Assembly (NCBI GenBank): GCA_021735685.1
Contig: JAIPGN010000005.1
Location: 1-54,652, forward strand
Direction: 5' to 3'
Length of the DNA: 54,652 nucleotides
Origin: Patescibacteria group bacterium
Lineage (GTDB): Bacteria; Patescibacteriota; Patescibacteriia; UBA2591; UBA6264
The position numbers and the translations under genes are program-made. Numbering within the stretch: the first letter of the stretch is position 1; every line of letters starts with the position of its first letter. A model generated the notes under the pieces. That model was given only the letters and a program-made list of their open reading frames with translations. It ran no database searches and was not told the origin of the DNA. Below, one piece after another: positions 8,152-53,978 of this stretch.

Positions 8152-8220
8152 GGGCGCATAGCTCAGGAGTACCTGCCTGCCGGTAGGCAGGCCTGCCTGC
8201 CGGTAGGCAGGGAGCGCCAT
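8152..8220 (+). pseudogene. tRNA 5'-half pseudogene interrupted in the D-loop
   Basis: GGGCGCATAGCTCAGGAGTA^GAGCGCCATC with a 40-nt insert; no T-arm or 3' acceptor strand follows. Confidence 0.7.
8172..8211. repeat. Tandem pair of 20-bp REP-like palindromes
   Basis: CCTGCCTGCCGGTAGGCAGG x2, exact. Confidence 0.9.
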
Positions 8221-8228
8221 CTTAAAAA

Positions 8229-8300
8229 GGGCATGTAGCTCAGAGGTAGAGCACTTGACTTATAATCAAGCGGTCCTGGGTTCGATCCCCAGCATGCCCA
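8229..8300 (+). tRNA. tRNA-Ile (anticodon UAU)
   Basis: GGGCATG/CATGCCC acceptor stem, CTTGA-CT TAT AA-TCAAG anticodon arm, GGTTCGA T-loop, discriminator A, CCA not encoded. Confidence 0.88.
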
Positions 8301-8380
8301 CTCCCTTTCAACAAAAATCACAATGTGGAGGTCAAACCCCCACAACATCCAAGTAAAGAAGAAAAAAATAACACAATAAT

Positions 8381-8623: not shown

Positions 8624-8698
8624 GGGCCCGTAGTTCAGTGGCAGAACGCCTCATTTGCAATGAGGAAGTCGGCGGTTCAAATCCGCCCGGGTCCACCA
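8624..8698 (+). tRNA. tRNA-Ala (UGC)
   Basis: GGGCCCG acceptor, CCTCA-TT TGC AA-TGAGG, encoded CCA. Confidence 0.95.
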
Positions 8699-8767: not shown

Positions 8768-9943
8768 ATGTTAATAACCAATCAACAAATCATTGAGGGG
8801 ATTAATCGTAAAAATAAAAAAAATCCCCTTTGGTATATTACTCGGGAACGAGAGCGGGGCCAAGGACTAGAAAGAGTCCTTGAAAATTACAAAATAATTA
8901 CATCCTCTCAGCCGCAAAGTACTTTTCAAATTATTAAATCTCTGAAAGTAAAACCAAATCAGAAAATTATAGTTTTCAAAAATACTCCCCAAATTCAAAG
9001 AATAGCGCACGAAAAAAATATTAAACTGCTGAACCCTCCGGTGAATTTAGTGGAAAAATACGAAAATAAAATTAGTCAATATCATTGGTTAAAAAAAATT
9101 ATTCCCGATTATCTCCCCTCTACTATTATTACTATTCCTCAAGAAAAAAAATATCTAGAATTAAAAAAAGAAATTGGCGAAAAATTTATCTGCCAATTTA
9201 ATCATGGTCACAGTGGAAAAGGAACTCAAATTATTTCCAATCAGAAAAATTGGGGAAAATTACAAAAAAAATTTCCCAAAAGGCCGGTGCGCCTCTCTCA
9301 ATTAATTGAAGGAGAAAGCTTCACTATCAACGTCTGTCTTTGGGGAGATTGCATCTTGTTGGGTAACCCCAGCTATCAAATTACTGGTTTACCAGAATGC
9401 ACCGACTTTCCTTTTGCTACTATTGGCAACGACTGGCATTATGCCAACCAAAATCTTTCTGCTTCAGATTACAAAAAAATAAAAGCAATTTGCCAAAAAA
9501 TAGGAAAATTCATGAACTCAGATGGATGGCAAGGTTTATTTGGACTAGATTTTGTCAGAAACAAAAAAAAAGATTGGAAGGTAATTGAAGTTAATGCTCG
9601 TCAAGCGGCCTCTGTTAATCTAGAAACAATTTTTCAACAAAAAAGCGGACCAGGCTTAAGTATCTTGACCGCCCATTTCGCTGCTTTACTTAAAATACCT
9701 TTAAGGCTCAACCAGAAACAAATTGAAAGATCAGTGCAAGAAATAAAAGAAGGGGCTCGCATTTTAATTAGAAAAAAGAAAAAACAAAATACCAAAAAAA
9801 TAAAAAAGCTTTGGCCAGAAAGTGAGATCAAGAAAATTAAAATTAACGAAATTATTGGCTCTTGGCCAACCGCCCGTGGCGGATTCATTAAAGTCCACAA
9901 CCAATGGAATTCAAAAGCAAAGGAACTGTTAAGGGAGATGTAG
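8768..9943 (+). CDS. ATP-grasp domain ligase
   Basis: ENK, GHSGKGT glycine loop, GLFGLDF..VIEVNAR (ExN metal motif). Confidence 0.8.
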   Translation: MLITNQQIIEGINRKNKKNPLWYITRERERGQGLERVLENYKIITSSQPQSTFQIIKSLKVKPNQKIIVFKNTPQIQRIAHEKNIKLLNPPVNLVEKYENKISQYHWLKKIIPDYLPSTIITIPQEKKYLELKKEIGEKFICQFNHGHSGKGTQIISNQKNWGKLQKKFPKRPVRLSQLIEGESFTINVCLWGDCILLGNPSYQITGLPECTDFPFATIGNDWHYANQNLSASDYKKIKAICQKIGKFMNSDGWQGLFGLDFVRNKKKDWKVIEVNARQAASVNLETIFQQKSGPGLSILTAHFAALLKIPLRLNQKQIERSVQEIKEGARILIRKKKKQNTKKIKKLWPESEIKKIKINEIIGSWPTARGGFIKVHNQWNSKAKELLREM

Positions 9944-10647
9944 ATAAAGAGAAAAGAAGACTTTCTCTTTCACCTTCAGCCCAAGCAGTAATTAATTCTT
10001 ATCTAAAAATGAAAATTGGCAACAAAATTATTGCTTGCCCTTATTTCATTAATCGGCAAGGCGCAAAAGCTGCCTTGCGTGTTTTTTTAGGAAAAGCCTC
10101 ATCTCAAGAAATTAAAGAAGAGATAGAAATGATCGCTCAACAAAAAGAAATTGATTTAAACCAAATGAGCGAAGAAGAAATCTATCAACTCTTGAAGTCC
10201 AAAAGACTGGGCATTGATTGTTCTGGCCTAGTGGTTCATATCTTAAAAGCGGAATATCAAGAGCGCAAAAATATCAACATTCTCCGCCGAATTTACATTA
10301 CCGCCCCTTGGAAGAATCCTTGGCGTTACTTTATTTCTCGTTTCCGTCCCATTGAAAACATTAGCGTCCGCGTCTTAGCTCATCCTTATAACAGTCGGAT
10401 AGTTAAAAATCCAGAAAAAATTCAAGCTGGAGACTTAATTATCTACCAAAGCCTTAAACATGTTCTTTTAATAGAAGAAATAAAATTAAATCAAGAAAAA
10501 ACTATTAAAGAAATCAAAATTATTCACGCTCAAAGAATGAGCCCCGAAGAAGAAGGAGCTCGAGTTAAAAGAATAACTTACTCTTTTTCTGAATTAAAGA
10601 AAAAAATAGAACAAGGCGAAATAATTCTTCGTCGTTTAAAATTCTAA
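9904..10647 (+). CDS. NlpC/P60-like cysteine peptidase, no signal peptide
   Basis: GIDCSGLV catalytic Cys motif, then AGDLI..KHVLL His. Start uncertain (overlaps the upstream gene by 40 nt). Confidence 0.7.
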   Translation: MEFKSKGTVKGDVDKEKRRLSLSPSAQAVINSYLKMKIGNKIIACPYFINRQGAKAALRVFLGKASSQEIKEEIEMIAQQKEIDLNQMSEEEIYQLLKSKRLGIDCSGLVVHILKAEYQERKNINILRRIYITAPWKNPWRYFISRFRPIENISVRVLAHPYNSRIVKNPEKIQAGDLIIYQSLKHVLLIEEIKLNQEKTIKEIKIIHAQRMSPEEEGARVKRITYSFSELKKKIEQGEIILRRLKF

Positions 10648-10649
10648 AT

Positions 10650-11777
10650 ATGGACTTCTTGTATCAAAATTTATTAACTACCATCCTTTTCTTTATTATC
10701 TTTTCTTCGTTGATTGCTTTTGTTTTAGCGCCCCTGATCATTCATCTACTTTACAAATTGAAGATTCAAAGGAAAATGGAACTAGACCCCTCTTTGCAGG
10801 CAAATCAAAAGAGGGTAAAAAAGGCAGGCACTCCTATCATGGGAGGATTGTTGATTATCATCACTATTTTAATCGTCACCCTGCTTTTTAATTTTGAACA
10901 AAAATTTACCTATGTTCCGATTGGCGTTATGGGTCTCTCCGCGCTCTTGGGAGGAATAGATGACTTACTTAATGTTTTTGGGCAAAAAAGGAAAATTCGT
11001 TCCCTAAAATTAACTCTAAAATTAATTCGCTGCCATCGCAATAAATTTTATCGCCTCTGGCTAATTGTTACTATTCCTTGGATTATTTTTCGCAATACTT
11101 TTTTAATACTCAGCTCGCATCCTACTCGCGGCGTTTTACCTCATGAGAAAATAATTCTTCAACTGATTACTGGCTTAATCACTGCCTGGTGGATAGTCTT
11201 TAAACTCGGCAATCAATGGCTTTATATCTGGGTCCCTTTTAATGGAGAAATTTATCTTGGCTATTGGATGATCCCAGTAGTGGTTTTTACAGTCATGTTT
11301 TTCGCCAATGCTGTTAACATCTCTGATGGCCTAGACGGCTTATCGGGCGGAGTACTTCTTTCTGCCTTTGGCGGTCTAGCAATTATTAGTTTTTTGCAAA
11401 ATAATGCTCATTTTGCCATTTTAAACGCCACAGCTATTGGCGCTTTAATCGCTTATATTTATTTTAATATCAAGCCAGCTCGTTTTCAAATGGGAGACAT
11501 TGGCTCCCTTAGTATGGGCGCTTTGTTTGCGGTAACTGCTTTAGCCCAAAACAGACTTTTAATTATTCCCTTTTTCGGCTTTATTTTTATCGTAGAAATT
11601 TTTTCCGTTATTCTTCAAATCATTTGGCGGCACTTGCTCGGCAAAAGACTCTTCAAGATGGCCCCCTTGCATCATCATTTAGAATGCTTGGGATGGAGTG
11701 AAGAGAAAATAGTAATGCGTTTTTGGATTATTAATTTATTCATGATGTTCTTTGGATTATGGATGGCCATGCCTTAG
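10650..11777 (+). CDS. mraY: Phospho-MurNAc-pentapeptide transferase MraY (with loop insertion)
   Basis: KAGTPIMGG, GIDD, NAVNISDGLDGL, QMGDIGS, KMAPLHHHLE. Confidence 0.9.
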   Translation: MDFLYQNLLTTILFFIIFSSLIAFVLAPLIIHLLYKLKIQRKMELDPSLQANQKRVKKAGTPIMGGLLIIITILIVTLLFNFEQKFTYVPIGVMGLSALLGGIDDLLNVFGQKRKIRSLKLTLKLIRCHRNKFYRLWLIVTIPWIIFRNTFLILSSHPTRGVLPHEKIILQLITGLITAWWIVFKLGNQWLYIWVPFNGEIYLGYWMIPVVVFTVMFFANAVNISDGLDGLSGGVLLSAFGGLAIISFLQNNAHFAILNATAIGALIAYIYFNIKPARFQMGDIGSLSMGALFAVTALAQNRLLIIPFFGFIFIVEIFSVILQIIWRHLLGKRLFKMAPLHHHLECLGWSEEKIVMRFWIINLFMMFFGLWMAMP

Positions 11778-12859
11778 ACAATCAATCCTTTAATTTAAAA
11801 AACAAAAAAGTCCTCATTTACACCGGGGACACTTTTGGTTTAGAAGCTCGAAAAAAATTACCCAGCCGACCCAAAACGGCCGATGGAATTTTGCGTTACG
11901 CCCAATACAATATTGTCGGCCTAGTTGACTCTCATTGCTCAAAAAAATTCACCAACCAAATTCTCCCCGACCTCAAAAATAAAATTCCTATTTTTAAAAC
12001 CATTAACGAAGCACAGAAAAAAACATCTGCCCAAGTTTTAATCATTGGGGTAGCCCCTCAAAAGGGAGAAGTTCCTATGAGTTTTACTCGGGAAATAGTT
12101 AAAGCCTTAGAGAATAATCTCGATTTAGTGAGTGGCTTACATCAGCCGCTTTCTTCTTTTTCCTCTATACTAAAAGCCGCTCAAAAAAACTCTCGAAAAA
12201 TATGGGAAGTACGCTACCCTCCACAAAAATTACCCCTAGCTAGCTGCCAAACTTATAAAATCAAAAAACCAATTATACTTACCATTGGCACTGATGCTGC
12301 CTTGGGTAAATTAACCACCACCTACGAAATGTTCCAAAAGGCACGCGCAAAATATCAAGCAGCCTTAATCCCTACAGGACAAACTAGCGTTATTATTGAA
12401 GGCTGGGGAATCTGCGTTGATAAATGTGCTGGTGATTTTATGGCCGGAGCAGTAGAAAAAATGATTCTCCAAAAAGAAAAACAAGAAAATCCAGACTTAT
12501 ATTTTGTAGAAGGACAAGGTTCCCTTGCTCATCCAGCTTTCTCTACCACGGCTATTGCTTTAATGCATGGTGCCTGCCCCACTCACTTAGTCTTGGTTCA
12601 CCGGCCGGCCCGGAAAAGAATGACTCATTGCTCACTCTTGCCAACACCTAGTATCAAAAAATCTATAGAAATAGCAGAAAAAATAATTCTTCCTTCTTAT
12701 TTGAAAAGTAAAGTAGTAGCTATTAGTTTAAATACTCAAGGGATGAACGATAACGAAGCCAAAGAAGAAATTAAAAAAATAAAAAAAGAAACTAATTTGC
12801 CCACTACTGACCAAATTCGTTTTCCTCAAAATTGGACCGAACTATTCTTGAAAAATTAA
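11759..12859 (+). CDS. DUF1611 family protein (Rossmann-like plus P-loop-like domains)
   Basis: KTADGILRY, IIGVAP..G, LTIGTDAALGKLTT, TGQT, VEGQGSL.HPA..ALMHGA.P pattern. Confidence 0.8.
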   Translation: MDGHALDNQSFNLKNKKVLIYTGDTFGLEARKKLPSRPKTADGILRYAQYNIVGLVDSHCSKKFTNQILPDLKNKIPIFKTINEAQKKTSAQVLIIGVAPQKGEVPMSFTREIVKALENNLDLVSGLHQPLSSFSSILKAAQKNSRKIWEVRYPPQKLPLASCQTYKIKKPIILTIGTDAALGKLTTTYEMFQKARAKYQAALIPTGQTSVIIEGWGICVDKCAGDFMAGAVEKMILQKEKQENPDLYFVEGQGSLAHPAFSTTAIALMHGACPTHLVLVHRPARKRMTHCSLLPTPSIKKSIEIAEKIILPSYLKSKVVAISLNTQGMNDNEAKEEIKKIKKETNLPTTDQIRFPQNWTELFLKN

Positions 12860-12935: not shown

Positions 12936-14345
12936 ATGAAACATATTCATTTTATCGGCATTTGCGGAGTAGGTATGGGATCTTTAGCAATTATGTTCAA
13001 AAAAATGGGATGGAAAGTTACAGGTTCAGATAAAGGATTTTTTTCTCCAATGAGCAATCATTTGCGCCAAGCAAAAATAGATTTTTATCCCGGTTGGCAT
13101 CCAGAAAAAATGAAAAAACCAGATCTAATAGTAATGGGAAACTTTGCTTCTTTACATAATCCAGAATATCTTTACGCTCAAGAAAAAAAAATTACTATTA
13201 AATCTTTCCCCGAATTGGTGCAAGAATATATCATTAAAGAAAACTCCATTGTGGTAACCGGAACCTATGCCAAAACCACCATCACCTCTTTTTTGGCCCA
13301 CCTTTTAAAAATAGCCGAGAAAGACCCCAGTTGGTTTGTGGGTGGTTTAGCTCTTAATCTTGCTAACGGAGCTCACTGTGGTAAAGGTGAATGGAGTATA
13401 GTAGAAGGAGATGAGTACAGCACGGCTCGTTGGGATCTTCGCTCCAAATTTTTCTGGTATCAACCCACTCACCTTTTAATTACTTCTGTAATTTGGGATC
13501 ATTTTGACATTTTTCCTCAGAAAGAAAAATATTTAGACGCTTTTCGAAAATTAACCAAAGCCCTTCCTTCTCATGGTCAAATTTTAGCTAATCAAAAAAC
13601 CAGACCCGATAACCATATTGAAGAAATAATTAAAAAAACTTCATCGCCAGTCAAACGTTATGGAAAATTAAACCCTAAAAACAATAATGATTATTCTTAT
13701 CAAATAAATTCTTTTTCTCCCCAAAAAACTATTTTTACCGTCTATAAAAAAAATCAAGAATGGAGCTCATTTTCCACTAATTTATTTGGGGAACACATGA
13801 TCGAAAATTTAACTGCTGGAATTGCTCTCGGAGACTTAATTGGTATCGAGAAAGAAAAAATAAAAAAAGCAGTATCCTCTTTTCAGGGAGTAAAACGTCG
13901 CCTTGAGCTCCGAGGAAATAAAAAAAATATTTTAATTTTTGACGATTTGGCTCATTCTCCCAGTAAGGCTCAAGGCTCTTTAAAAGCCTTACGGCTATAT
14001 TTCCCTCAGGCCAGAATTATCGCCATCTACGAACCCAATGTCGGTAACCGGACTTTAAGTAGTAAAAAATTTTATCGAGACTCTTTCAATCAAGCTGATT
14101 GGGTTATCATTCCCCGATTATCAAAAACCAAAACTAACGCTCAGCAAGAAAAACGTTTGGACGGCGAAGAACTGGCCAAAACTATTAAAGAAAAAAATAA
14201 AAAAACTCTAAGAGTTTCTTATTTCAATAAAGACGATCAATTGGTTGAATCTGTTAAGAAAAAAGTAAAGCCTCAAGATGTAGTCATCTTCTTGGGCTCA
14301 CACAGTTTCAGAGGAATGATTGAAGAGCTGATAACTGAAATTTAA
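12936..14345 (+). CDS. Mur ligase of the Mpl/MurC type
   Basis: HIHFIGICGVGMGSLA, VTGTYAKTTITS, EGDEY, DHFD, GVKRRLE, DDLAHSP. The GICG start and the DD-x-AH motif resemble Mpl (DDFAHHP). Confidence 0.8.
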   Translation: MKHIHFIGICGVGMGSLAIMFKKMGWKVTGSDKGFFSPMSNHLRQAKIDFYPGWHPEKMKKPDLIVMGNFASLHNPEYLYAQEKKITIKSFPELVQEYIIKENSIVVTGTYAKTTITSFLAHLLKIAEKDPSWFVGGLALNLANGAHCGKGEWSIVEGDEYSTARWDLRSKFFWYQPTHLLITSVIWDHFDIFPQKEKYLDAFRKLTKALPSHGQILANQKTRPDNHIEEIIKKTSSPVKRYGKLNPKNNNDYSYQINSFSPQKTIFTVYKKNQEWSSFSTNLFGEHMIENLTAGIALGDLIGIEKEKIKKAVSSFQGVKRRLELRGNKKNILIFDDLAHSPSKAQGSLKALRLYFPQARIIAIYEPNVGNRTLSSKKFYRDSFNQADWVIIPRLSKTKTNAQQEKRLDGEELAKTIKEKNKKTLRVSYFNKDDQLVESVKKKVKPQDVVIFLGSHSFRGMIEELITEI

Positions 14346-14346
14346 G

Positions 14347-14511
14347 TTATTTTCCTTCGTCAATTACCTCTAAGTCAACACGTTCACCATTAATGCTGGT
14401 CACTTCTAGGGTAACACCACAAGTGTTACACTCGATAATGCTCCCCTCTTCTATTTCTGAAGGATCGTCAACATTAATATTGTTTTTACATTCTGGGCAA
14501 AATAATTTCAT
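14347..14511 (-). CDS. LysW-like zinc-ribbon small protein (amino-group-carrier fold), C-terminus DEGK
   Basis: Manual translation MKLFCPECKNNINVDDPSEIEEGSIIECNTCGVTLEVTSINGERVDLEVIDEGK (54 aa): CPEC..CxxCG.TLEV, acidic. Missed by the ORF track. Confidence 0.8.
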   Translation of the reverse strand: MKLFCPECKNNINVDDPSEIEEGSIIECNTCGVTLEVTSINGERVDLEVIDEGK

Positions 14512-14551
14512 ATTAATATTTTAGAAAAAAAGAATTTAATGTCAAGCTTTC

Positions 14552-15430
14552 ATGAAGTCGACTCCGCAAAAAAAATATCCCAATCTGGCTCAAATCCTAA
14601 AAGTTCCTGAAGTTTGGATCAAAGAAGAATACCTTAATAAGTCCGGTTCTCATAAAATCAGATTAATTAATTTTCTTTTTCAAAAATATGTTCGTCAAGG
14701 AAAAAAAGATTTTACCATCTCTTCTTCCGGGAATGCCGCAATTGCCGCAGCCTATTATCTCCAGAAAATCAAAAACCCTCAACTGAATTTAAGTATTTTT
14801 ATTTCGCCTCAAATTGAAAAATCTAAATGGCAACGTTTACTTAAGGTTTGCAATTCTTCTCCGCAAATAAAAATTAAAAAAGCTCGAAGACCAAAACAAG
14901 AAGCCTTTATTTTTGCCCAAAAAAATAAAGCTATTTTTTTACGAGGATCAACCGAGCCACAAGCTGAAAAAGCTTATAAGGGCCTAGGTCAAGAAATGCA
15001 AAAAATTCCCAACCTACAAGCCATTTTTGTTCCTACTTCTTCGGGTCTAACCGCTTTAGGGGTTTCTTCTGCTCTTTCTCAAACAAAGAACAAAACAGAA
15101 ATTCATATTGTGCAAACTGCCAAAATTCATCCTTTTTCTGCAAACTTTGACTCTGAATTTAATCCTCAAGAGACCTCTTTGGCTTCGGCTATTGTGGATC
15201 AAGTCGGAAAAAGAAAAAAAGAAATTATAGAAATGGTCAAAAGAACAAAAGGTTGGGGCTGGACAATTAACGACCAAGAATTAAAAAATGCCCGAAAAAT
15301 TGTTGAATTAAATACAAACCTTGGTAAAATAAACTATGACAGTCTTTTATCAATCGCTGGACTAATCAAAGCGCAAAAAAATGGATGGAATTTTGAAAGA
15401 CCAGTTTGTTGCCTTTTTACCGGAATTTAG
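14552..15430 (+). CDS. PLP-dependent fold-type II enzyme (threonine/cysteine synthase-like)
   Basis: KEEYLNKSGSHK (Schiff-base Lys), SSSGNAA, VPTSSG phosphate loop, C-terminal TG. Confidence 0.8.
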   Translation: MKSTPQKKYPNLAQILKVPEVWIKEEYLNKSGSHKIRLINFLFQKYVRQGKKDFTISSSGNAAIAAAYYLQKIKNPQLNLSIFISPQIEKSKWQRLLKVCNSSPQIKIKKARRPKQEAFIFAQKNKAIFLRGSTEPQAEKAYKGLGQEMQKIPNLQAIFVPTSSGLTALGVSSALSQTKNKTEIHIVQTAKIHPFSANFDSEFNPQETSLASAIVDQVGKRKKEIIEMVKRTKGWGWTINDQELKNARKIVELNTNLGKINYDSLLSIAGLIKAQKNGWNFERPVCCLFTGI

Positions 15431-15452: not shown

Positions 15453-16748
15453 ATGAATCTAGAAATTAAGGGAGACAAAAAATTAAAAGGAACGGTAGTC
15501 ACCAATACCTCTAAAAATGCCGCTATGGGCTTAATGGCTGCTAGCCTTTTAAACAAGGGAACAACTCTTTTGCGACAAGTACCAAAAATTGAAGAGGTTA
15601 ACAGAATGATTGAAGTTTTGAGTAGTTTGGGAGTAAAGATACAATGGGTTCAAGACAATAATTTAAAAATTATCCCTCCTTCAAAAATATCTTTAGAAAA
15701 ACTTAATAAAAAATCAGCTATTAAAACTAGAAGTATTATCATGCTTTTGGGTCCGCTGATCCATGAATTCAAAAAATTCAAATTACCCCAACCGGGCGGT
15801 TGCAAGCTTGGTCGCCGCACTGTACGTCCTCACTTGTTTGCCTTGGAAAATCTAGGAGTTAAAATCGAAACCCGCTCCAAATATTATGAAGTTGCTCGCC
15901 AAAAACTAAAAGCTGCGGAAATAGTTCTTTACGAATCTGGAGACACCACCACGGAAAACGTTATTATGGCCGCCGCCAAAATTCCAGGCAAAACTACAAT
16001 TAAATTAGCTTCAGCCAACTATCAGGTTCAAGATCTTTGTCATTTTCTTTCTCTTTTGGGAGTTAAAATTAAGGGCATTGGCACCACCACTCTTACTATC
16101 AATGGTCAGCCAGAAATTCACAAAAATATAGAATATCATTTAAGCGAAGATCCAATAGAAAGTATGTTTTTTTTAGCAGTGAGCGCCACCACCAACTCTC
16201 CTTTATTGATCAAAAGATGTCCGATTGATTTCCTTGAGCTAGAGCTTCTAAAACTAGAGAAAATGAATTTTAAATTCAAAATAATTAAGAGATATAAGGC
16301 TAAAAATAAATTTACTAACCTAGTAGATATTAAAACTTATCCTTCTCAATTACAAGCCTTAGAGGAAAAAATATACGCCCGACCCTTTCCTGGTCTAAAT
16401 ATTGATAATTTGCCCTTTTTTGTACCCATCGCCACTCAAGCTAAAGGACAAACTCTTATTCACGACTGGGTTTACGAACATCGAGCCATTTATTATACTG
16501 AATTATCAAAACTAGGAGCAAAAATAATTTTAGCCGACCCTTACCGAGTTTACATTGATGGCCCCAGCAAACTTAAAGCTGCGGAAATTATTTGCCCTTC
16601 TGCTCTCCGGCCAGCAACAATTATACTTATCGCCATGCTCAATGCTAAGGGAACCTCAATTTTACGCAACATCTATTCTATTAATCGTGGTTACGAAAAT
16701 CTGAGCGAACGCTTGAATAATTTAGGGGCAGAAATTAAAATAATATAA
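15453..16748 (+). CDS. murA: UDP-N-acetylglucosamine 1-carboxyvinyltransferase
   Basis: SKNAA, PGGCKLGRR (catalytic Cys), TENVIMAA, PFPG, RGYE. Confidence 0.92.
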   Translation: MNLEIKGDKKLKGTVVTNTSKNAAMGLMAASLLNKGTTLLRQVPKIEEVNRMIEVLSSLGVKIQWVQDNNLKIIPPSKISLEKLNKKSAIKTRSIIMLLGPLIHEFKKFKLPQPGGCKLGRRTVRPHLFALENLGVKIETRSKYYEVARQKLKAAEIVLYESGDTTTENVIMAAAKIPGKTTIKLASANYQVQDLCHFLSLLGVKIKGIGTTTLTINGQPEIHKNIEYHLSEDPIESMFFLAVSATTNSPLLIKRCPIDFLELELLKLEKMNFKFKIIKRYKAKNKFTNLVDIKTYPSQLQALEEKIYARPFPGLNIDNLPFFVPIATQAKGQTLIHDWVYEHRAIYYTELSKLGAKIILADPYRVYIDGPSKLKAAEIICPSALRPATIILIAMLNAKGTSILRNIYSINRGYENLSERLNNLGAEIKII

Positions 16749-24024: not shown

Positions 24025-24957
24025 TTATTCTTCTTGTTCTTGAAAATTCTTAGCTTCTTTCTCTTGTTGCGTTGCCCACCAAATCAAGGATTTAGCCTCT
24101 TGAAATCTATTCTCGTTGCTATCCGCCCCTAAAACTATTACAATCAACTTTTGGTCATCATAATTACTTACGCCGGCAAAACAATAACCACTAGCATCTA
24201 AATAACCAGTTTTGGCACCCTCAATTTTAATAAAATTTCCTAAAAGTTGATCGGTGTTATAGACCCGTTGATAAAGAGCGCGCCCGTTTCTTTTCAATTC
24301 TAAATCATAAGTAGCCTGTGACAGGGCTTCTTTAATTTCCTTATGTTGAAAAGCAGCTCGCACTAGCTTGGTTAAATCCCGAGCGCTGGAACGATTAGAA
24401 GAGCTTAAGCCAGTTGGTTCCAAAAAATAAGTATCTCGCATTCCCAACTCTTGAGCCTTTTCATTCATTAAGTCAGCAAAATTTTGACCGCAACAAACCA
24501 CTGTTCTCGCTAAAATCTTACTGGCATTATTAGCCGATCGAATCAAGCCAGAATTGAAAACGTCCCGCAAGGTCAGTTCATCTCCAATTAAAACATCTAA
24601 TAAGGCTGGCTGCATTTCTTCGCCACCCCCTTTATTAGTAAATTTAATCAAATCCTGTTCGGAAACTTGAATAATTTCATTCCAGTCTTTTTTATTGTTT
24701 TCCAAAAAAACCAAAGCAGTCATTAGTTTACTAATACTGGCAATGGGTAAAATTTCTTCAGAATTCTTTTCAAACAAAATCTTCCCCGAATTAAAATCCA
24801 CAACCAAAGCACTGCGGGCGCTTAATTTAGGACCCAAAGAATAAGAAGAATTAATTTCAGGGCCTGAGCTTTCAATTAAATTATTCCAAGTGATGACTTC
24901 TTGATAAAGAGGAGAGGCTGACAGAAAAAAAATTGTAGCTAAAATCGAAAAAAGCAT
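24025..24957 (-). CDS. S11 family D-alanyl-D-alanine carboxypeptidase/endopeptidase
   Basis: PIASISK (SxxK), RSANN (SxN), AKTGY (KTG); signal peptide. Confidence 0.9.
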   Translation of the reverse strand: MLFSILATIFFLSASPLYQEVITWNNLIESSGPEINSSYSLGPKLSARSALVVDFNSGKILFEKNSEEILPIASISKLMTALVFLENNKKDWNEIIQVSEQDLIKFTNKGGGEEMQPALLDVLIGDELTLRDVFNSGLIRSANNASKILARTVVCCGQNFADLMNEKAQELGMRDTYFLEPTGLSSSNRSSARDLTKLVRAAFQHKEIKEALSQATYDLELKRNGRALYQRVYNTDQLLGNFIKIEGAKTGYLDASGYCFAGVSNYDDQKLIVIVLGADSNENRFQEAKSLIWWATQQEKEAKNFQEQEE

Positions 24958-24965
24958 AATCAGTT

Positions 24966-25922
24966 TTATTTTTTAAAAATTTTGCCCACCCGATAAAGAT
25001 TATACCAAAAACTAGAGAAAGGTAAATCAAAGGTGCCGGGATAAGTGACTTGGCGACAACCAAAGTTCATTTTAAATTTCGTTAAACCTGGCCATTTTTG
25101 AGAATCAATCCCCCAAAAATCATAATACTCGCATTTATTATTGTTGGCAATTCGAATGGCCTCCCAATGTAAAAGATGAGGGGCCATCACCTGTGAAAAC
25201 TCACGAGAAGAACCACCGTGCACATAAAAAGCCCTTTGATTAAAAAAAATAACTAAATGAGCAGCTAAAATTTTATCCAAATAACGAGCTAGATACAATT
25301 TACTTTGGGAAAGATTTAATAATTCTCGATAATATTCAAAATCATGGATTTGAAATTCTTCCCTCTTGGCGGTTTCTTGTAAAAGTCTCCAAAAGCAATC
25401 TAAGCTTTGACTTTCTTCAATTTCCACCCCTTTTCTCTGAGCTAAACGAATGTTATAACGGGTTTTAGAGTGCATAGCTGATAAAAGATCGGCTTCCTTC
25501 TTTTGTAAATCCAAAAAAGCAGTCTGGCTAGGCTGAACATCTGAAGTTTTTTTTATTTTCAAAGAAAGACTTATCTCTTTCAAGGGCTCAAAACGAAAAA
25601 AAATCGCTTTTTCTTGATCAGCCAAAACCTTAATTTGTTTAAAGAAAAAATCAAGAGTAACTTGACCAGAAACATCTTGAAAAAAGGGACCACGCGGACA
25701 ATATAAATAACCAAAACCCAAGGGAAGAGAATTTTTAATTATTAGAGCCTGAACCAAGGTTTTGTTTTTCTCCTGCACGGCTAAGCGCCAAATTTTCCTT
25801 CCCATTTTTTTTTGAAAATCTCCCCACTCCCAAGATTGTAAAAACTGATCACCAGTTTGCCAATTTTCTTTTTCCTGAATCTCTCTAATTTCCATAAATA
25901 AATCTAATTTTATTTTTGTCAA
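24966..25922 (-). CDS. FemABX family peptidoglycan bridge peptidyltransferase
   Basis: FLQSWEWG, YCPRGP, KTRYNIRLAQRKGV, YDFWGI, GLTKFK. Confidence 0.88.
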   Translation of the reverse strand: MTKIKLDLFMEIREIQEKENWQTGDQFLQSWEWGDFQKKMGRKIWRLAVQEKNKTLVQALIIKNSLPLGFGYLYCPRGPFFQDVSGQVTLDFFFKQIKVLADQEKAIFFRFEPLKEISLSLKIKKTSDVQPSQTAFLDLQKKEADLLSAMHSKTRYNIRLAQRKGVEIEESQSLDCFWRLLQETAKREEFQIHDFEYYRELLNLSQSKLYLARYLDKILAAHLVIFFNQRAFYVHGGSSREFSQVMAPHLLHWEAIRIANNNKCEYYDFWGIDSQKWPGLTKFKMNFGCRQVTYPGTFDLPFSSFWYNLYRVGKIFKK

Positions 25923-34540: not shown

Positions 34541-35842
34541 ATGGCTTCTCTTACTTTAATCAAAAAAATTCAAAAAGAAACAGTCGGACAAACCGTAACC
34601 CTGCGAGGCTGGGCGCATAATATTAGATCCTCGGGATCAATTATTTTTATAGAAATCAGAGATGGAAGTGGTTTTATTCAGGGAATAATAGAAAAAAAAC
34701 AATTAGGAAAAAAAGGATGGGCCGAAGCGGAAAAAATTACCAGAGAAACTTCTTTAGAAATAGAAGGCTTGATTCAAGAGCACCCTCGTCAAAAAGGCGT
34801 TTTTGAAGCACAAATTAAAAAAATCTCCCTGAAGCAAGTGGCTGATGAATACCCTATTGGCAAAAAAAACCATGGGCCTGATTTTTTATTAGATCATCGC
34901 CACCTTTGGCTGAGAGATCAAAAACAGTGGGCTATTCAAAGTATTCGTCAAGAAATCATTAAAAGCACCTATCAATTTCTTTGGCAAAATGATTTTACAA
35001 AAATTGACTCACCAATTTTGACTCCTACGGCTTGCGAAGGGACAACCACTCTTTTCGAATTAGAATATTTTAATTTAGGAAAAGCTTATCTTTCTCAATC
35101 CGGACAACTTTATCTAGAAGCCGCTATCGCCGCCCATAATAAAGTTTTTGACTTTGGGCCCACTTTCCGTGCTGAAAAATCCAAAACCCGCAAACATTTA
35201 ATTGAATTTTGGATGATGGATGCTGAAATGGCTTTTGTGGAACACCAAGAAAGCATGAATATTCAAGAAAAATTAATCTCTTTTATCGTCCAAAGAGTTT
35301 TAAAAAATAAAGGGCCCGAACTCGACTTACTTGCCCGAAATAAAGAAAAATTAGAAAAAACAAAACCTCCTTTCTCGCGCTTAACCTATCAAGAGGCTAT
35401 TCAAAAATTACAAAAAATGGGCTCAAAAATTAAATTCGGAGACGACTTTGGAGCTGAAGACGAAACCTTAATTACCGCTGATAGCGAAATTCCTGTTTTT
35501 ATAGAAAAATGGCCAGAAAAAATTAAAGCTTTCTATATGAAGTCCGATCCCCAAAACAATAAACTGGTCTTAGGAGCAGATTTAATTGCTCCCGAAGGAT
35601 ATGGAGAAATTATCGGCGGCTCTCAACGAGAAGATGATTATCAAATTTTGAAAAAAAAGATGAAAGCAGCCAAAATTCCCTTACAATATTTCCAGTGGTA
35701 CCTAGACTTAAGAAAGTATGGGTCGGCTCCTCATTCTGGCTTTGGTTACGGTCTCGAGAGAATAGTGGCTTGGATTTGCGGCTGTCAACATATTCGCGAA
35801 ACCATCCCCTTTCCCCGATTAATTAATCGCTTAACTCCTTAA
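34541..35842 (+). CDS. asnS: Asparagine--tRNA ligase
   Basis: CEGTTTLF, YLSQSGQLY, FRAEKS..HLIEFWM, GEIIGGSQRE, GFGYGLER. Confidence 0.95.
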   Translation: MASLTLIKKIQKETVGQTVTLRGWAHNIRSSGSIIFIEIRDGSGFIQGIIEKKQLGKKGWAEAEKITRETSLEIEGLIQEHPRQKGVFEAQIKKISLKQVADEYPIGKKNHGPDFLLDHRHLWLRDQKQWAIQSIRQEIIKSTYQFLWQNDFTKIDSPILTPTACEGTTTLFELEYFNLGKAYLSQSGQLYLEAAIAAHNKVFDFGPTFRAEKSKTRKHLIEFWMMDAEMAFVEHQESMNIQEKLISFIVQRVLKNKGPELDLLARNKEKLEKTKPPFSRLTYQEAIQKLQKMGSKIKFGDDFGAEDETLITADSEIPVFIEKWPEKIKAFYMKSDPQNNKLVLGADLIAPEGYGEIIGGSQREDDYQILKKKMKAAKIPLQYFQWYLDLRKYGSAPHSGFGYGLERIVAWICGCQHIRETIPFPRLINRLTP

Positions 35843-35844
35843 AA

Positions 35845-37266
35845 ATGTTCCGAACTAAAATTAAAGAAACTTCAAAAAAGGCCAATCAAAAAGTTAAAAT
35901 TTGCGGTTGGGTCCAAAGAAGACGCAATTTGGGGAAAATTGTTTTTTTAACTTTGCGAGATCAATCCGGCTTAGTTCAAGTGGTAGCCGCGCCCCAAGAT
36001 CTTGATTCCGAGTCGCAAAAAACTTTAGAAAAGATTCGCCATGAATTCGTAATAAGCATAGAAGGACAAGTCAATCAAAGACCTCAAAGTCAAATTAATA
36101 AAGAAATGGAAACTGGATCTGTAGAGATTCTAGCCCAAAAGATTACTATTCTCAACGAATCTTTAACCCCTCCCTTTGAAATTGGCAATGAGGAAAAACA
36201 AGCCAAGGAAGAATTACGGCTTCAGTACAGATACCTAGACCTCCGCCAAGAAAGAATGAAAAAAAACATAATGGCCCGTTCTCAAGTAATTCATGCTATT
36301 AGGAATTTTTTAAATAAAAAAGGATTTACTGAAATTCAAACTCCTATTTTATCCAAATCTACTCCCGAAGGAGCTCGCGATTATTTAGTTCCTTCTCGAG
36401 TCCATTCCGGCAAATTTTTTGCCCTACCTCAAGCCCCCCAACAATACAAGCAAATGTTAATGATTGCTGGTATCGAAAAATATTTTCAAATTGCTCCTTG
36501 TTTTCGCGATGAAGACGCTCGCGCCGACCGTTCTCCCGGAGAATTTTATCAAATTGACATGGAAATGTCTTTTGTGGAGCAAGAAGAAATTCTTGACATA
36601 ACTGAAGAAATGTTTAAAAAAATTATCAGTCAGCTTTTCCCAGAGAAAAAAATTACCTCCTCTCCTTGGCCTCGTCTTGATTACGAAGAAGTAATAAAAA
36701 AATATAAAACCGACAAACCAGACCTAAGAAAAGACAAAGAAGATCCTCAGGAATTAGCCTTTGCCTGGATTTTAAATTTCCCCCTTTTGGTTCAACAAGA
36801 ACAGCAAAAGGAAAAATTTGTCGGAATAAAAAGCAAATGGGCTCCAAGTCACAATATGTTTACTCGGCCTCAAGAAAAAGATCTTTCTCTTTTAGATACT
36901 GACCCTGGTCAAGTTAAGTCTTATCAACACGACTTGGTTTTGAACGGAATAGAAGTGGGGGGAGGAGCTATGCGCATTCATCAAGCAAAGCTACAAGAAA
37001 AAATTTTCAAACTAATTGGATTAGAAGAAGAGCAGAAAAAAGAATTTTCTCACTTTCTCCGCGCTCTAAAATACGGAGCCCCTCCGCACGGAGGAATTGC
37101 TCCAGGATTAGACCGACTTTTATCTGTACTCTTGAATGAAAAAAATATACGAGAAACGATTGCCTTTCCTTTAACCTCAGACGCTCGCGACCCCTTAATG
37201 GATGCCCCTAGCAAAGTTGACCCCCAACAATTAAAAGAATTGGGTATTATAATCAAGAAAAAATAA
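35845..37266 (+). CDS. aspS: Aspartate--tRNA ligase, short form without the GAD insertion
   Basis: TPEGARDYLVPSR, LPQAPQQYKQ, CFRDED, YGAPPHGG. Confidence 0.95.
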   Translation: MFRTKIKETSKKANQKVKICGWVQRRRNLGKIVFLTLRDQSGLVQVVAAPQDLDSESQKTLEKIRHEFVISIEGQVNQRPQSQINKEMETGSVEILAQKITILNESLTPPFEIGNEEKQAKEELRLQYRYLDLRQERMKKNIMARSQVIHAIRNFLNKKGFTEIQTPILSKSTPEGARDYLVPSRVHSGKFFALPQAPQQYKQMLMIAGIEKYFQIAPCFRDEDARADRSPGEFYQIDMEMSFVEQEEILDITEEMFKKIISQLFPEKKITSSPWPRLDYEEVIKKYKTDKPDLRKDKEDPQELAFAWILNFPLLVQQEQQKEKFVGIKSKWAPSHNMFTRPQEKDLSLLDTDPGQVKSYQHDLVLNGIEVGGGAMRIHQAKLQEKIFKLIGLEEEQKKEFSHFLRALKYGAPPHGGIAPGLDRLLSVLLNEKNIRETIAFPLTSDARDPLMDAPSKVDPQQLKELGIIIKKK

Positions 37267-39180: not shown

Positions 39181-39230
39181 TTTTAAAATAATGGACAAAG
39201 GGTCTTTTTTGTGCTAAAGTGAAAATGTGG

Positions 39231-39303
39231 GGCCAGGTAGCCAAGTGGCTAAGGCGTCGGTCTGCAAAACCGATATACACGGGTTCGACTCCCGTCCTGG
39301 CCT
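39231..39303 (+). tRNA. tRNA-Cys (GCA)
   Basis: GGCCAGG/CCTGGCC acceptor, TCGGT-CT GCA AA-ACCGA, U discriminator. Confidence 0.93.
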
Positions 39304-39334
39304 TTTTTTAATCTCCAAGAAGAGGTATATTTTT

Positions 39335-51689: not shown

Positions 51690-51926
51690 ATGCCTAGATT
51701 AGATGGAACTGGTCCTCAAGGACAAGGTCCAACAACCGGCCGAGGCTTTGGTCCCTGCGGAGCTGGATTCAGACGAGGCTGTGGCTATGGTCGTGGCTGG
51801 GGAAGACAAAGATTCATTTCCCCTAAAAATGAATTAAGCGCCTTAGAACAAGAAGAAAAGGCTTTGCAAGAAGAATTAGAGGCAATCCAAGAAGAAAAGA
51901 AGGCCTTAAAGGACCAGCAAAAATAA
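51690..51926 (+). CDS. DUF5320-like Gly/Arg-rich small protein
   Basis: MPRLDGTGPQGQGPTTGRGFGPC..GRG plus a coiled-coil tail; GAGG SD. Confidence 0.8.
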   Translation: MPRLDGTGPQGQGPTTGRGFGPCGAGFRRGCGYGRGWGRQRFISPKNELSALEQEEKALQEELEAIQEEKKALKDQQK

Positions 51927-51985
51927 AAGAAGGCTTGGGAGTCCAGTCCTTCGCTCAAAGCAAAGGGCTGGTCAGCCTTCTTTCT
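51927..51985 (+). terminator. Long hairpin/terminator
   Basis: AAGAAGGCT/AGCCTTCTT outer stem and CCAGTCCTT/AAGGGCTGG inner stem, followed by Ts. Confidence 0.6.
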
Positions 51986-52024
51986 TATTAAATTAACACA
52001 AAAAATAAAAATAATCAACTTTAT

Positions 52025-52303: not shown

Positions 52304-52315
52304 AATAATCAAATT

Positions 52316-52340
52316 ATGTACGAGGTTCGACCTCGTACAT
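52316..52340. repeat. Perfect 11-bp-arm palindrome (REP-like)
   Basis: ATGTACGAGGT-TCG-ACCTCGTACAT. Confidence 0.75.
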
Positions 52341-52343
52341 TAT

Positions 52344-52578: not shown

Positions 52579-52610
52579 TGGACGAAATGAAATAAAGCTA
52601 AACATACGCT

Positions 52611-52916: not shown

Positions 52917-52918
52917 GT

Positions 52919-53953: not shown

Positions 53954-53978
53954 AAGAATGAAGTATAAGGGGAGTTAT

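What the first reader, a model, noticed from the sequence alone, without database searches (positions are those of the whole stretch)
14347..14511. Hidden LysW-like carrier protein ending in DEGK rather than EDWGE
Seen: an unannotated 54-aa acidic ORF with CPEC and CNTCG zinc knuckles and TLEV, convergent with the Mur ligase and divergent (40-nt gap) from the PLP enzyme. Knowledge: LysW/AmCP proteins carry substrates on the gamma-carboxyl of the terminal Glu of EDWGE, loaded by ATP-grasp LysX; no lysX/Z/Y/J/K genes are present here. Inference: a variant carrier with a terminal Lys could present an amine (or the Glu of EGK) and tether acyl or peptidyl intermediates with reversed polarity for cell-wall precursor synthesis. 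That would be a new carrier chemistry.
Basis: partly seen in the sequence, partly recalled or inferred. Interest (0 to 1): 0.88.

Follow-up and report, generated by a model that had tools for sequence, protein, structure and literature searches.

The report
LysW-like carrier protein ending in lysine
A tiny uncalled gene encodes a zinc-binding relative of the lysine-pathway carrier LysW that always ends in lysine rather than glutamate and, across Patescibacteria, travels with a vitamin-B6 (PLP) enzyme, an ATP-grasp ligase and a cysteine hydrolase in the cell-wall precursor cluster, which suggests an undescribed carrier-protein route.

Summary
ORF 14347-14511(-) encodes a 54-aa acidic zinc ribbon ending in DEGK. 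It is a real gene: more than 1,500 90%-identity clusters match it.

- **Conserved C-terminus.** A DNA pattern covering only the two knuckles found 117 orthologues, and all end in Lys (DEGK 107). Every synonymous codon is used.
- **LysW fold.** The protein passes Pfam Zn_ribbon_LysW. LysW structures are the top five PDB matches to its model (TM up to 0.71).
- **Not a LysW member.** It fails the curated LysW models and lacks EDWGE. No lysXZYJK genes are in the window.
- **Conserved neighbours.** Its constant partner is a fold-type II PLP enzyme on the opposite strand (114 of 120 loci). An ATP-grasp ligase and a cytoplasmic NlpC/P60-like hydrolase recur in four different gene orders, beside MraY, MurC or MurD.

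Best reading, inferred and at about 0.4: the ATP-grasp tethers an amino acid to the Lys54 epsilon-amine, the PLP enzyme modifies it, and the hydrolase releases it for cell-wall synthesis. The main rival is a non-covalent partner whose tail inserts into the PLP enzyme, as in the SAT-CysK complex. I found no description of this family in the papers searched.

The parts
14347..14511 (-). Gene for the 54-aa LysW-like zinc-ribbon protein ('ZR'), stop codon included
   Evidence: Translation. PF21344 scores 41.9 bits, above the cut-off of 27. 1,546 homologous clusters. AF2 model pLDDT 87, and the top five PDB matches are LysW.
14488..14499 (-). First zinc knuckle, C5-P-E-C8 (family motif CPECKN)
   Evidence: C5, P6, E7, C8, K9 and N10 are invariant in 121 sequences.
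14416..14430 (-). Second zinc knuckle, C28-N-T-C31-G32
   Evidence: E27, C28, C31 and G32 are invariant.
14350..14361 (-). C-terminal motif D51-E52-G53-K54, the proposed functional end
   Evidence: Across 117 orthologues found with a knuckle-only pattern: K 117/117, E(-3) 115/117, G(-2) 111/117, D(-4) 109/117. All synonymous codons and all three stop codons are used.
14518..14545 (-). Sigma-70-like promoter TTGACA-16-TAAAAT, ending 6 nt before the ZR ATG
   Evidence: 11 of 12 consensus matches. Comparable sites with at least 9/12 matches lie upstream of ZR in 50 of 75 relatives, though the AT-rich background makes this weak evidence.
14552..15430 (+). Fold-type II PLP enzyme, the constant partner of ZR, transcribed divergently
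   Evidence: PF00291 at 8e-30. Catalytic Lys (SHK) and the SSSGN loop are invariant. A homologue is present in 114/120 ZR loci. In the reciprocal test, 6 of 9 metagenomic relatives have ZR upstream. It is about equally distant from threonine synthases, Ser/Thr dehydratases and Ser/Asp racemases.
8768..9943 (+). ATP-grasp ligase (PurK / biotin carboxylase / L-amino-acid-ligase-like), the proposed loading enzyme
   Evidence: PF02655. AF2 model pLDDT 94, with Foldseek top hits PurK, biotin carboxylase, PurD and L-amino-acid ligase; no entry described as LysX or RimK is in the top 50 listed. It overlaps the PLP gene's stop by 4-8 nt in L123, L130 and L132.
9904..10647 (+). Cytoplasmic NlpC/P60-CHAP-like Cys/His hydrolase, always paired with the ATP-grasp; the proposed release enzyme
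   Evidence: A DCSG cysteine and two histidines are invariant in 20 homologues. 11 of 20 homologues hit PF00877, and others hit Amidase_6 or CHAP. No signal peptide is visible. Adjacent to ZR in L132.
10650..11777 (+). MraY (phospho-MurNAc-pentapeptide transferase), cluster context
   Evidence: TIGR00445 at 2e-55. Present in 56/120 loci, a count limited by the 8-kb blocks.
11759..12859 (+). DUF1611 / DgcN-like P-loop protein, at the position where most relatives carry an ATE_C-like gene
   Evidence: PF07755 plus PF17396; NF041892 DgcN scores 213 bits, below its cut-off. ATE_C-like gene in 67 loci.
12936..14345 (+). MurC-like Mur ligase, convergent with ZR
   Evidence: TIGR01082 at 4e-84. Present in 101/120 loci. 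Its 3' end overlaps the ZR 3' end by 20-32 nt in 17 of 92 loci.
15453..16748 (+). MurA, immediately downstream of the PLP enzyme in this window
   Evidence: NF006873 at 1e-101, above its cut-off.

Best explanation
SHOWN. The ORF is a real, selected gene for a small acidic zinc-ribbon protein that is homologous to, and folds like, the amino-group carrier LysW. It belongs to a subfamily found here almost only in Patescibacteria (CPR) MAGs. Its C-terminus is fixed as [D/E]-E-[G/E]-K with an invariant terminal Lys. The gene is paired on the opposite strand with a fold-type II PLP enzyme. Both travel with an ATP-grasp ligase and a cytoplasmic NlpC/P60-type Cys hydrolase inside the peptidoglycan-precursor cluster (MraY, MurC, MurD, Fem/ATE-like transferases).

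INFERRED. ZR works as a carrier or scaffold, like LysW but with reversed polarity.
1. The ATP-grasp activates a carboxylate of an amino acid, most coherently the side-chain carboxylate of Glu or Asp, and couples it to the epsilon-amine of Lys54.
2. The tethered residue keeps its free alpha-amine and alpha-carboxylate, so the PLP enzyme can bind and transform it. Racemisation is the most plausible reaction, given the need for D-amino acids next to MurC and MurD.
3. The NlpC/P60-like hydrolase then releases or hands on the product for the Mur ligases.

Loading driven by ATP and selective unloading would make the conversion one-directional.
For: Real gene and family:
- 78 representative clusters and 1,546 clusters match.
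- 117 orthologues were found with a pattern that did not include the C-terminus.
- The last four residues are conserved with free synonymous codon use.

LysW homology:
- PF21344 scores above its cut-off.
- The model has pLDDT 87.
- The top five PDB matches are LysW, with TM 0.65-0.71 and 32-36% identity.
- When the C-termini are aligned end to end (LysW EDWGE against ZR IDEGK), D(-4) and G(-2) are shared and the terminal E becomes K. The LysW sequence was recalled, not retrieved.

Module synteny in four different arrangements:
- ATP-grasp> P60> MraY> ATE> MurC> ZR< PLP>.
- ZR< PLP> ATP-grasp> P60> MraY> (L016, L048, L103 and L130; L069 is cut after the ATP-grasp).
- P60> Mur ligase> ZR< PLP> ATP-grasp> (L123).
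- P60> ZR< PLP> ATP-grasp> FtsW> (L132).
- The PLP and ATP-grasp genes overlap by 4-8 nt in L123, L130 and L132.

Other support:
- The PLP enzyme keeps the catalytic Lys and the carboxylate-binding SSSGN loop, so it should need a substrate with a free alpha-amine and alpha-carboxylate.
- The P60-like protein keeps its Cys/His residues and has no signal peptide.
- A canonical Ddl is present beside the module in L132, so the ATP-grasp is not simply Ddl.
- A MurD-like gene flanks the PLP gene in 31 loci.
- ZR is acidic (mean net charge -5.4), as LysW is, which argues against nucleic-acid binding.

Precedents, from my own knowledge: ATP-grasp enzymes that use a peptide amine or a Lys epsilon-amine as nucleophile (PGM1 in pheganomycin; microviridin lactam ligases), and the ATP-grasp plus CHAP pairing in glutathionylspermidine synthetase/amidase.
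Against: - No biochemical datum exists. Attachment site, substrate and reaction type are all inferred.
- The ATP-grasp is not of the LysX/RimK class.
- In most loci the ATP-grasp and P60 genes are separated from ZR and the PLP gene by MraY, ATE and MurC, so the two pairs could be independent peptidoglycan functions.
- The PLP enzyme cannot be assigned to racemase, dehydratase or beta-replacement type.
- The model leaves only about 3 residues free beyond a hairpin, which is short for reaching buried active sites.
- NUDIX fusions to the ATP-grasp hint at a nucleotide-linked substrate rather than a protein.
- One PLP orthologue has no ZR beside it (L125).
- This window also carries a DgcN-like gene that may deal with D-Glu by another route.
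Confidence: 0.4

Rival explanations
1. ZR is a non-covalent partner or regulator of the PLP enzyme. Its invariant C-terminal ...E-G-K-COOH inserts into the active site, with the terminal carboxylate sitting in the SSSGN carboxylate loop. This mirrors how the C-terminal Ile of serine acetyltransferase (and the CdiA-CT 'GYGI' tail) plugs CysK. ZR would gate, inhibit or stabilise the enzyme without ever being loaded.
For: - The ZR-PLP pair is much the strictest link (114/120 loci). It persists where MurC, the ATP-grasp and P60 are not adjacent.
- Opposite-strand, divergent pairing with a median 86-nt gap is typical of regulator and target.
- The invariant residue is the very last one, so a free alpha-carboxylate is part of the motif.
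- Only about 3 residues are free in the model.
- CysK is also a fold-type II PLP enzyme (own knowledge).
Against: - This does not explain why the nearest homologues are covalent carriers.
- It does not explain why the ATP-grasp gene overlaps the PLP gene in an operon directly next to ZR in several lineages.
- It does not explain the conserved acidic residue next to the Lys.
Confidence: 0.25
2. ZR's Lys54 epsilon-amine is the nucleophile in a beta-replacement catalysed by the PLP enzyme. An aminoacrylate made from Ser, O-phosphoserine or Cys is captured by ZR. This resembles CysO thiocarboxylate with CysM, or glutamate with SbnA, and would give a lysinoalanine-type adduct that is later processed by the P60-like hydrolase. 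The ATP-grasp would act elsewhere in peptidoglycan synthesis.
For: - The ZR-PLP pair alone would be self-sufficient, which matches its stricter linkage.
- SbnA and CysM are among the PDB relatives of the PLP enzyme.
- CysO-CysM is a precedent for a small protein donating a nucleophile to a fold-type II enzyme (own knowledge).
Against: - Similarity to SbnA and CysM is weaker (E 1e-5 to 1e-6) than to threonine synthase and Ser dehydratase.
- No downstream enzyme of SbnB type was seen in the loci.
- No peptidoglycan component of that kind is known to me.
Confidence: 0.1
3. ZR is a classical-polarity amino-group carrier. The nearly invariant Glu52 (or a C-terminal carboxylate) is the attachment point for a substrate's amino group, as with LysW Glu54. 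Lys54 would serve as a recognition element or be trimmed off first.
For: - E(-3) is present in 115/117 orthologues.
- Homology to LysW.
- An ATP-grasp is present in the module.
Against: - Blocking the substrate's alpha-amine would make it unusable by the one enzyme that is always present, a fold-type II PLP enzyme with an intact carboxylate/amine binding loop.
- The terminal Lys, not the Glu, is the only absolutely invariant tail residue. In L130 the tail is ...IAEK, which shifts the Glu.
- The ATP-grasp is not LysX/RimK-like.
Confidence: 0.1
4. ZR is a generic zinc-ribbon protein, such as a nucleic-acid binder, a transcription factor or an RNA-polymerase/ribosome accessory (some pipelines name it this way). 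Its position in the cell-wall cluster would be incidental.
For: Source annotations include 'RPC12/RpoP', 'ribosomal protein S27E' and 'Zn ribbon nucleic-acid-binding protein'. It has its own promoter-like site.
Against: - It is strongly acidic.
- The best structural and sequence matches are LysW, while RPB12 matches are at chance level.
- Synteny is conserved across many lineages and four arrangements.
Confidence: 0.03

Closest known systems
LysW / ArgW amino-group carrier proteins (AmCP) of Thermus, Sulfolobus, Thermococcus and Streptomyces
   Same: - Same length (about 54 aa), same CxxC...CxxC zinc ribbon and acidic surface.
- Best PDB matches, with TM 0.65-0.71 and 32-36% identity.
- Pfam PF21344 scores above its cut-off.
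- D at -4 and G at -2 of the tail are shared.
- Accompanied by an ATP-grasp ligase and a hydrolase.
   Different: - Terminal residue is Lys, not Glu, and there is no Trp (DEGK against EDWGE).
- Scores are below both curated NCBIfam LysW cut-offs.
- No lysX/Z/Y/J/K genes are present.
- The partner ATP-grasp is PurK/BC/Lal-like.
- The constant partner is a fold-type II PLP enzyme.
- The context is peptidoglycan precursor synthesis in organisms whose window shows no amino-acid biosynthesis genes.
CysO-CysM (and the SbnA type): a small protein or amine delivered to a fold-type II PLP enzyme
   Same: A small dedicated protein whose C-terminal group would react in, or dock to, a fold-type II PLP enzyme encoded next door.
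   Different: CysO is a beta-grasp protein with a GG-thiocarboxylate end. ZR is a zinc ribbon ending in Lys. No sulfur-activating enzyme or JAMM protease was seen.
Serine acetyltransferase-CysK complex / CdiA-CT-CysK
   Same: An invariant C-terminal residue of a partner protein, with its free carboxylate, fits the active site of a fold-type II PLP enzyme.
   Different: The partner there is a large enzyme or toxin ending in Ile, and the binding is regulatory. No ATP-grasp or hydrolase is involved.
Glutathionylspermidine synthetase/amidase (ATP-grasp + CHAP)
   Same: An ATP-grasp amide-forming enzyme is coupled to a papain-like (CHAP/NlpC-P60) amidase that undoes the same kind of bond.
   Different: It is a fused single protein acting on small molecules, with no carrier protein and no PLP enzyme.
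ATP- or acyl-driven one-way D/L-glutamate conversions: MurD2/MurL (Xanthomonas) and DgcN/DgcA
   Same: The logic of 'derivatise, epimerise, release' to make or consume D-Glu irreversibly (PMC8788868, PMC12363236). This window carries a DgcN-like DUF1611 gene in the same cluster.
   Different: The derivatising group there is UDP-MurNAc-L-Ala or an acetyl group, not a protein. No PLP enzyme is involved.
Scaffold-peptide ('pearlin') biosynthesis and ATP-grasp peptide ligases (PGM1, microviridin lactam ligases)
   Same: A ribosomal peptide serves as a handle on which an amino acid is built or attached and then cleaved off. ATP-grasp enzymes use a peptide amine or Lys epsilon-amine as the nucleophile.
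   Different: Those are secondary-metabolite systems with variable peptides. ZR is a folded, highly conserved housekeeping-type protein in a core cell-wall cluster.

Membership tests
LysW/AmCP (amino-group carrier protein) | LysW-type zinc-ribbon globular domain | tested here: met
   PF21344 scores 41.9 bits against a cut-off of 27. AF2 model pLDDT 87. Foldseek ranks 1-5 are LysW chains (3wwl, 3wwn_B, 5eio_C, 5k2m_E/F), with TM 0.65-0.71.
LysW/AmCP (amino-group carrier protein) | Score above the curated NCBIfam LysW models | tested here: not met
   NF041070 scores 43.7 bits against 75. TIGR01206 scores 29.1 against 53.2.
LysW/AmCP (amino-group carrier protein) | C-terminal EDWGE-type tail with a terminal Glu whose gamma-carboxyl carries the substrate | tested here: not met
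   The tail is IDEGK. The terminal Lys is present in 117/117 orthologues. True LysW proteins (…EDWGE) appear only as weak hits (P0067, P0079).
LysW/AmCP (amino-group carrier protein) | Gene neighbourhood with lysX/argX (RimK-type ATP-grasp), lysZ, lysY, lysJ and lysK | tested here: not met
   None were found in the window. The linked ATP-grasp is closest to PurK, biotin carboxylase and L-amino-acid ligase, and no entry described as LysX or RimK is in the top 50 listed.
LysW/AmCP (amino-group carrier protein) | ATP-dependent covalent loading of a substrate on the C-terminus | not testable with these tools
   This needs intact-protein MS after co-expression with the ATP-grasp.
Tail-insertion partner of a fold-type II PLP enzyme (SAT-CysK type) | The partner enzyme is a fold-type II PLP enzyme with an intact carboxylate-binding loop | tested here: met
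   PF00291 at 8e-30. K35 and S59-G60-N61 are invariant.
Tail-insertion partner of a fold-type II PLP enzyme (SAT-CysK type) | Invariant last residue with a free alpha-carboxylate | tested here: met
   K is the last residue in 117/117 orthologues, followed directly by a stop codon. The residue is Lys rather than the Ile of SAT.
Tail-insertion partner of a fold-type II PLP enzyme (SAT-CysK type) | A physical complex that competes with the substrate | not testable with these tools
   No complex prediction or binding assay was available.
Graspetide / RiPP precursor modified by an ATP-grasp | Leader plus variable core peptide with repeated Thr/Ser/Lys and Asp/Glu cross-link motifs | tested here: not met
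   ZR is a folded zinc ribbon with a highly conserved sequence (mean column identity 56% over 121 sequences). It has no repeated core motif.
Ubiquitin-like / sulfur-carrier proteins (ThiS, MoaD, CysO) | Beta-grasp fold with a C-terminal Gly-Gly | tested here: not met
   The fold is a zinc ribbon and the tail ends in Gly-Lys.

The most novel reading that the evidence does not exclude
ZR is a 'carboxyl-group carrier protein', a LysW homologue with inverted chemistry. An L-amino acid (Glu or Asp) is tied through its side-chain carboxylate to the terminal Lys epsilon-amine by an ATP-grasp. It is epimerised or otherwise remodelled on the carrier by a fold-type II PLP enzyme. An NlpC/P60-type amidase then releases it stereoselectively. 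Together these would form a protein-templated, ATP-driven supply line of a D- or non-standard amino acid for the Mur ligases of Patescibacteria.
Probability: 0.25. Interest if true: 0.9.

Novelty: new variant of a known kind. Interest (0 to 1): 0.72.

Why it matters
Carrier-protein-mediated amino-acid chemistry is so far known only with the substrate's amino group attached to a terminal Glu, as in LysW/ArgW/AmCP. A phylum-wide relative with an invariant terminal Lys, wired to a PLP enzyme, would extend that principle. The new chemistry would leave the alpha-amine free, making PLP reactions possible on a tethered substrate.

It would also fill a gap in how the very reduced Patescibacteria build their cell wall. 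It would give four conserved genes of unknown role a testable function: ZR, the PLP enzyme, the ATP-grasp and the P60-like hydrolase. It also flags a gene that callers sometimes miss. Even if the protein proves to be a non-covalent regulator, it would be a new example of tail-plug control of a fold-type II PLP enzyme.

Tried and rejected
- **The search for related loci with ZR alignments A1 and A2.** I replaced them with a degenerate DNA pattern for the two knuckles.
- **The same kind of pattern in viral contigs.** No matches.
- **Word-indexed homologue search with the single peptide.** Only one hit. The exhaustive and profile searches were needed.
- **Profile searches of the ATP-grasp and P60-like families against PDB sequences.** No hits.
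- **Overlap with MurC as the cause of tail conservation.** The 3' ends overlap in only 17 of 92 loci, and codons vary freely, so this was rejected.
- **ATP-grasp as a Ddl substitute.** Rejected, because a canonical Ddl sits beside the module in L132.
- **Isoelectric points of partner enzymes**, looking for basic docking surfaces. Uninformative.
- **Assigning a reaction type to the PLP enzyme from motif alignment.** The threonine synthase residue that I recall as the phosphate-binding Arg aligns with a non-basic residue. The Asn loop resembles that of Ser dehydratases. No assignment was possible.
- **Literature searches.** LysW together with Patescibacteria/CPR terms, and amino-group carrier protein, found no description of this family. 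Whether MurL belongs to DUF1611 could not be verified. Iyer et al. 2009 on amidoligases is not held.

Full report
**1. The observation**

The minus-strand ORF 14347-14511 translates to MKLFCPECKNNINVDDPSEIEEGSIIECNTCGVTLEVTSINGERVDLEVIDEGK.

- A MurC-like gene (12936-14345, +) converges on it with 1 nt between the two stop codons.
- A PLP-enzyme gene (14552-15430, +) diverges from it across a 40-nt gap.
- Pfam scans of every ORF of at least 100 aa in the window show housekeeping and cell-wall genes typical of a small Patescibacteria-type genome. The GC content is about 35%. No lysX/Z/Y/J/K genes were found.
- The protein database lists the window's ATP-grasp (P0234) but not this peptide. The same ORF was left uncalled in one related assembly (L133). 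'Hidden' is therefore fair.

**2. It is a real gene and a large family**

- The peptide passes Pfam Zn_ribbon_LysW (41.9 bits against a cut-off of 27). It fails both curated NCBIfam LysW models.
- Exhaustive phmmer found 78 representative clusters. A profile search found 1,546 clusters at 90% identity. Sources name them 'hypothetical', 'LysW', 'RPC12' and the like.
- To test the C-terminus without bias, I scanned GTDB genomes with a degenerate DNA pattern covering only the two knuckles. Nearly all are Patescibacteria MAGs: Magasanikbacteria, Taylorbacteria, Paceibacterota, Nomurabacteria, Spechtbacteria and Dojkabacteria. Some carry doubtful automatic labels.
- 117 of 118 complete ORFs are small proteins with a core of about 54 aa. 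They end in DEGK (107), EEEK (4), EEGK (3), DAGK, DESK or ETEK.
- In those 117 orthologues the terminal Lys is invariant. E(-3) is present in 115, G(-2) in 111 and D(-4) in 109. All synonymous codons and all three stop codons are used. Selection therefore acts on the protein, not on the DNA.
- The MurC and ZR 3' ends overlap in only 17 of 92 loci, so the overlap cannot explain the conservation.
- More distant members end in ...LEEEK or ...IAEK. The Lys is the constant feature.

**3. Relation to LysW**

- An AlphaFold2 model built on 121 sequences has pLDDT 87.
- The five best PDB matches are all LysW chains, with TM 0.65-0.71, rmsd 2.0 Å over 50 columns for the best (3wwl), and 32-36% identity.
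- LysW is also the best sequence-profile hit, though only for the globular part.
- With the two 54-residue proteins anchored at their ends, LysW ...EDWGE lines up with ZR ...IDEGK. D(-4) and G(-2) are shared, and the terminal Glu has become Lys. The LysW sequence came from memory, not from a tool.
- The model puts residues 34-51 in a beta-hairpin and leaves only E52-G53-K54 free.
- ZR is a homologue of LysW but not a member of the functional LysW family. The terminus, the curated thresholds and the neighbourhood all fail.

**4. Neighbourhood**

BLAST of the window's proteins against ORFs in the 120 loci found these homologues (the 8-kb block edges limit the counts):

| Gene | Loci with a homologue |
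|---|---|
| PLP enzyme | 114 |
| MurC-like ligase | 101 |
| ATE_C-like transferase | 67 |
| MraY | 56 |
| P60-like hydrolase | 43 |
| ATP-grasp | 32 |
| MurD-like ligase (flanking the PLP gene) | 31 |

- The usual order is ATP-grasp> P60> MraY> ATE_C-like> MurC> (NUDIX>) ZR< PLP>.
- ZR is always on the strand opposite the PLP gene. The median gap between their start codons is 86 nt.
- Three other arrangements keep the same four genes together:
  - ZR< PLP> ATP-grasp> P60> MraY> (L016, L048, L103 and L130; L069 is cut after the ATP-grasp).
  - P60> Mur ligase> ZR< PLP> ATP-grasp> (L123).
  - P60> ZR< PLP> ATP-grasp> FtsW> (L132).
- In L123, L130 and L132 the PLP and ATP-grasp genes overlap by 4-8 nt.
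- In the reciprocal test, 6 of 9 metagenomic relatives of the PLP enzyme have ZR just upstream on the other strand. One clear orthologue (L125) lacks it.
- A canonical Ddl lies beside the module in L132, so the ATP-grasp is not a Ddl replacement.

**5. The partner enzymes**

- **PLP enzyme.** It keeps the catalytic Lys and an invariant SSSGN loop. It is about equally distant from threonine synthases, Ser/Thr dehydratases and Ser/Asp racemases. Its reaction type is open.
- **ATP-grasp.** The model has pLDDT 94 and resembles PurK, biotin carboxylase, PurD and an L-amino-acid ligase. No entry described as LysX or RimK is in the top 50 listed. Some homologues are fused to a NUDIX domain.
- **P60-like protein.** It has an invariant DCSG cysteine and two invariant histidines and no signal peptide. 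More than half of its homologues hit NlpC/P60, Amidase_6 or CHAP.

**6. Interpretation**

Shown: ZR is a conserved LysW homologue with an invariant terminal Lys. It is genetically coupled to a fold-type II PLP enzyme, an ATP-grasp ligase and a cytoplasmic papain-like hydrolase inside the peptidoglycan-precursor cluster.

Inferred: the set 'carrier + ATP-grasp + modifying enzyme + hydrolase' parallels LysW, LysX, the modifying enzymes and LysK. A fold-type II PLP enzyme needs a free alpha-amine and alpha-carboxylate. The coherent chemistry is therefore to tether an amino acid through a side-chain carboxylate to the Lys54 epsilon-amine, transform it on the carrier, and release it with the amidase. 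Racemisation is the most plausible transformation next to MurC and MurD. I put this at about 0.4.

Rivals:
- A non-covalent tail plug of the PLP enzyme, of the SAT-CysK type (0.25).
- Lys54 acting as nucleophile in a beta-replacement (0.1).
- Classical attachment at Glu52 (0.1).
- A generic zinc-ribbon role (0.03). This is disfavoured by the acidity of the protein and by the synteny.

Points that weaken the best model:
- The ATP-grasp is of a different class from LysX.
- The ATP-grasp and P60 genes are usually separated from ZR and the PLP gene.
- The free tail is short.
- The NUDIX fusions hint at a nucleotide-linked substrate.

**7. Novelty**

Searches of the paper library found nothing that links LysW-like proteins with Patescibacteria, or that describes this module. 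I rate it a new variant of a known kind. It would be a new carrier chemistry if loading on Lys is demonstrated.

**8. Expression signals**

A near-consensus sigma-70-type promoter (TTGACA-16-TAAAAT, 11 of 12 matches) ends 6 nt before the ZR start codon. Comparable sites occur upstream of ZR in 50 of 75 relatives, but the AT-rich background makes this weak evidence.

Noticed in passing
window 8229-8301 (+): tRNA-Ile with anticodon UAU, to my knowledge rare in bacteria, followed by tRNA-Ala(UGC) at 8624-8698. The listed ORF 8163-8348 (-) overlaps the tRNA and is probably spurious.
   Followed up: no
window 39227-39304: tRNA-Cys(GCA) at 39230-39304 overlaps the GTG start of the 5'-3' exonuclease ORF 39227-40264. 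The Pfam match begins at residue 39, so the true start is probably downstream.
   Followed up: no
window 11759-12859 (+): A DUF1611 / DgcN-like P-loop gene sits between MraY and MurC, where 67 related loci have an ATE_C-like (aminoacyl-tRNA transferase fold) gene. Only L002 and L082 share the DUF1611 arrangement. DgcN acts on D-glutamate (PMC12363236), which hints at a D-Glu link. Whether MurL belongs to this family could not be verified.
   Followed up: partly
P0210, P0220-P0222; NUDIX genes such as L012:2704-3261 and L056:3506-4057: In Magasanikbacteria the ATP-grasp is fused to a NUDIX domain, or a roughly 183-aa NUDIX gene lies between MurC and ZR. This suggests that a nucleotide-linked substrate or by-product is involved. 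It remains unexplained.
   Followed up: partly
related loci; window 14343-14349: The 3' ends of MurC and ZR abut (1 nt apart in the window) or overlap by 20-32 nt on opposite strands in 17 of 92 loci. No terminator-like site lies between them, so convergent transcripts must overlap.
   Followed up: partly
L125:583-1557: A PLP-enzyme orthologue lies directly after MurC with no ZR gene beside it. It has N- and C-terminal extensions, the latter acidic (...GKGDKDEEN).
   Followed up: no
L133:8961-9113 (-): The ZR ORF is intact but was not called as a gene in this assembly. It was called in the near-identical locus L132. The family is probably under-annotated.
   Followed up: yes
window 24025-25922 (-): A FemAB-family transferase (24966-25922) lies next to a D-Ala-D-Ala carboxypeptidase S11 (24025-24957). 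This suggests a branched, Lys-type peptidoglycan in this organism.
   Followed up: no
window 34541-37266 (+): Two tandem class II aminoacyl-tRNA synthetases of the Asp/Lys/Asn family (433 and 473 aa) are separated by 2 nt.
   Followed up: no
window 51785-54380 (-): A radical SAM/SPASM enzyme (52919-53953) is flanked by ORFs with no Pfam match (53979-54380 and 51785-52090). This could be a peptide-maturation locus.
   Followed up: no
P0005, P0022, P0035, P0045, P0078: Multi-repeat proteins carry 2-7 LysW-like zinc ribbons, each followed by an internal W-S-(D/N/K)-W-G-(E/R) motif. They are a different, apparently uncharacterised branch of the LysW-like superfamily.
   Followed up: no
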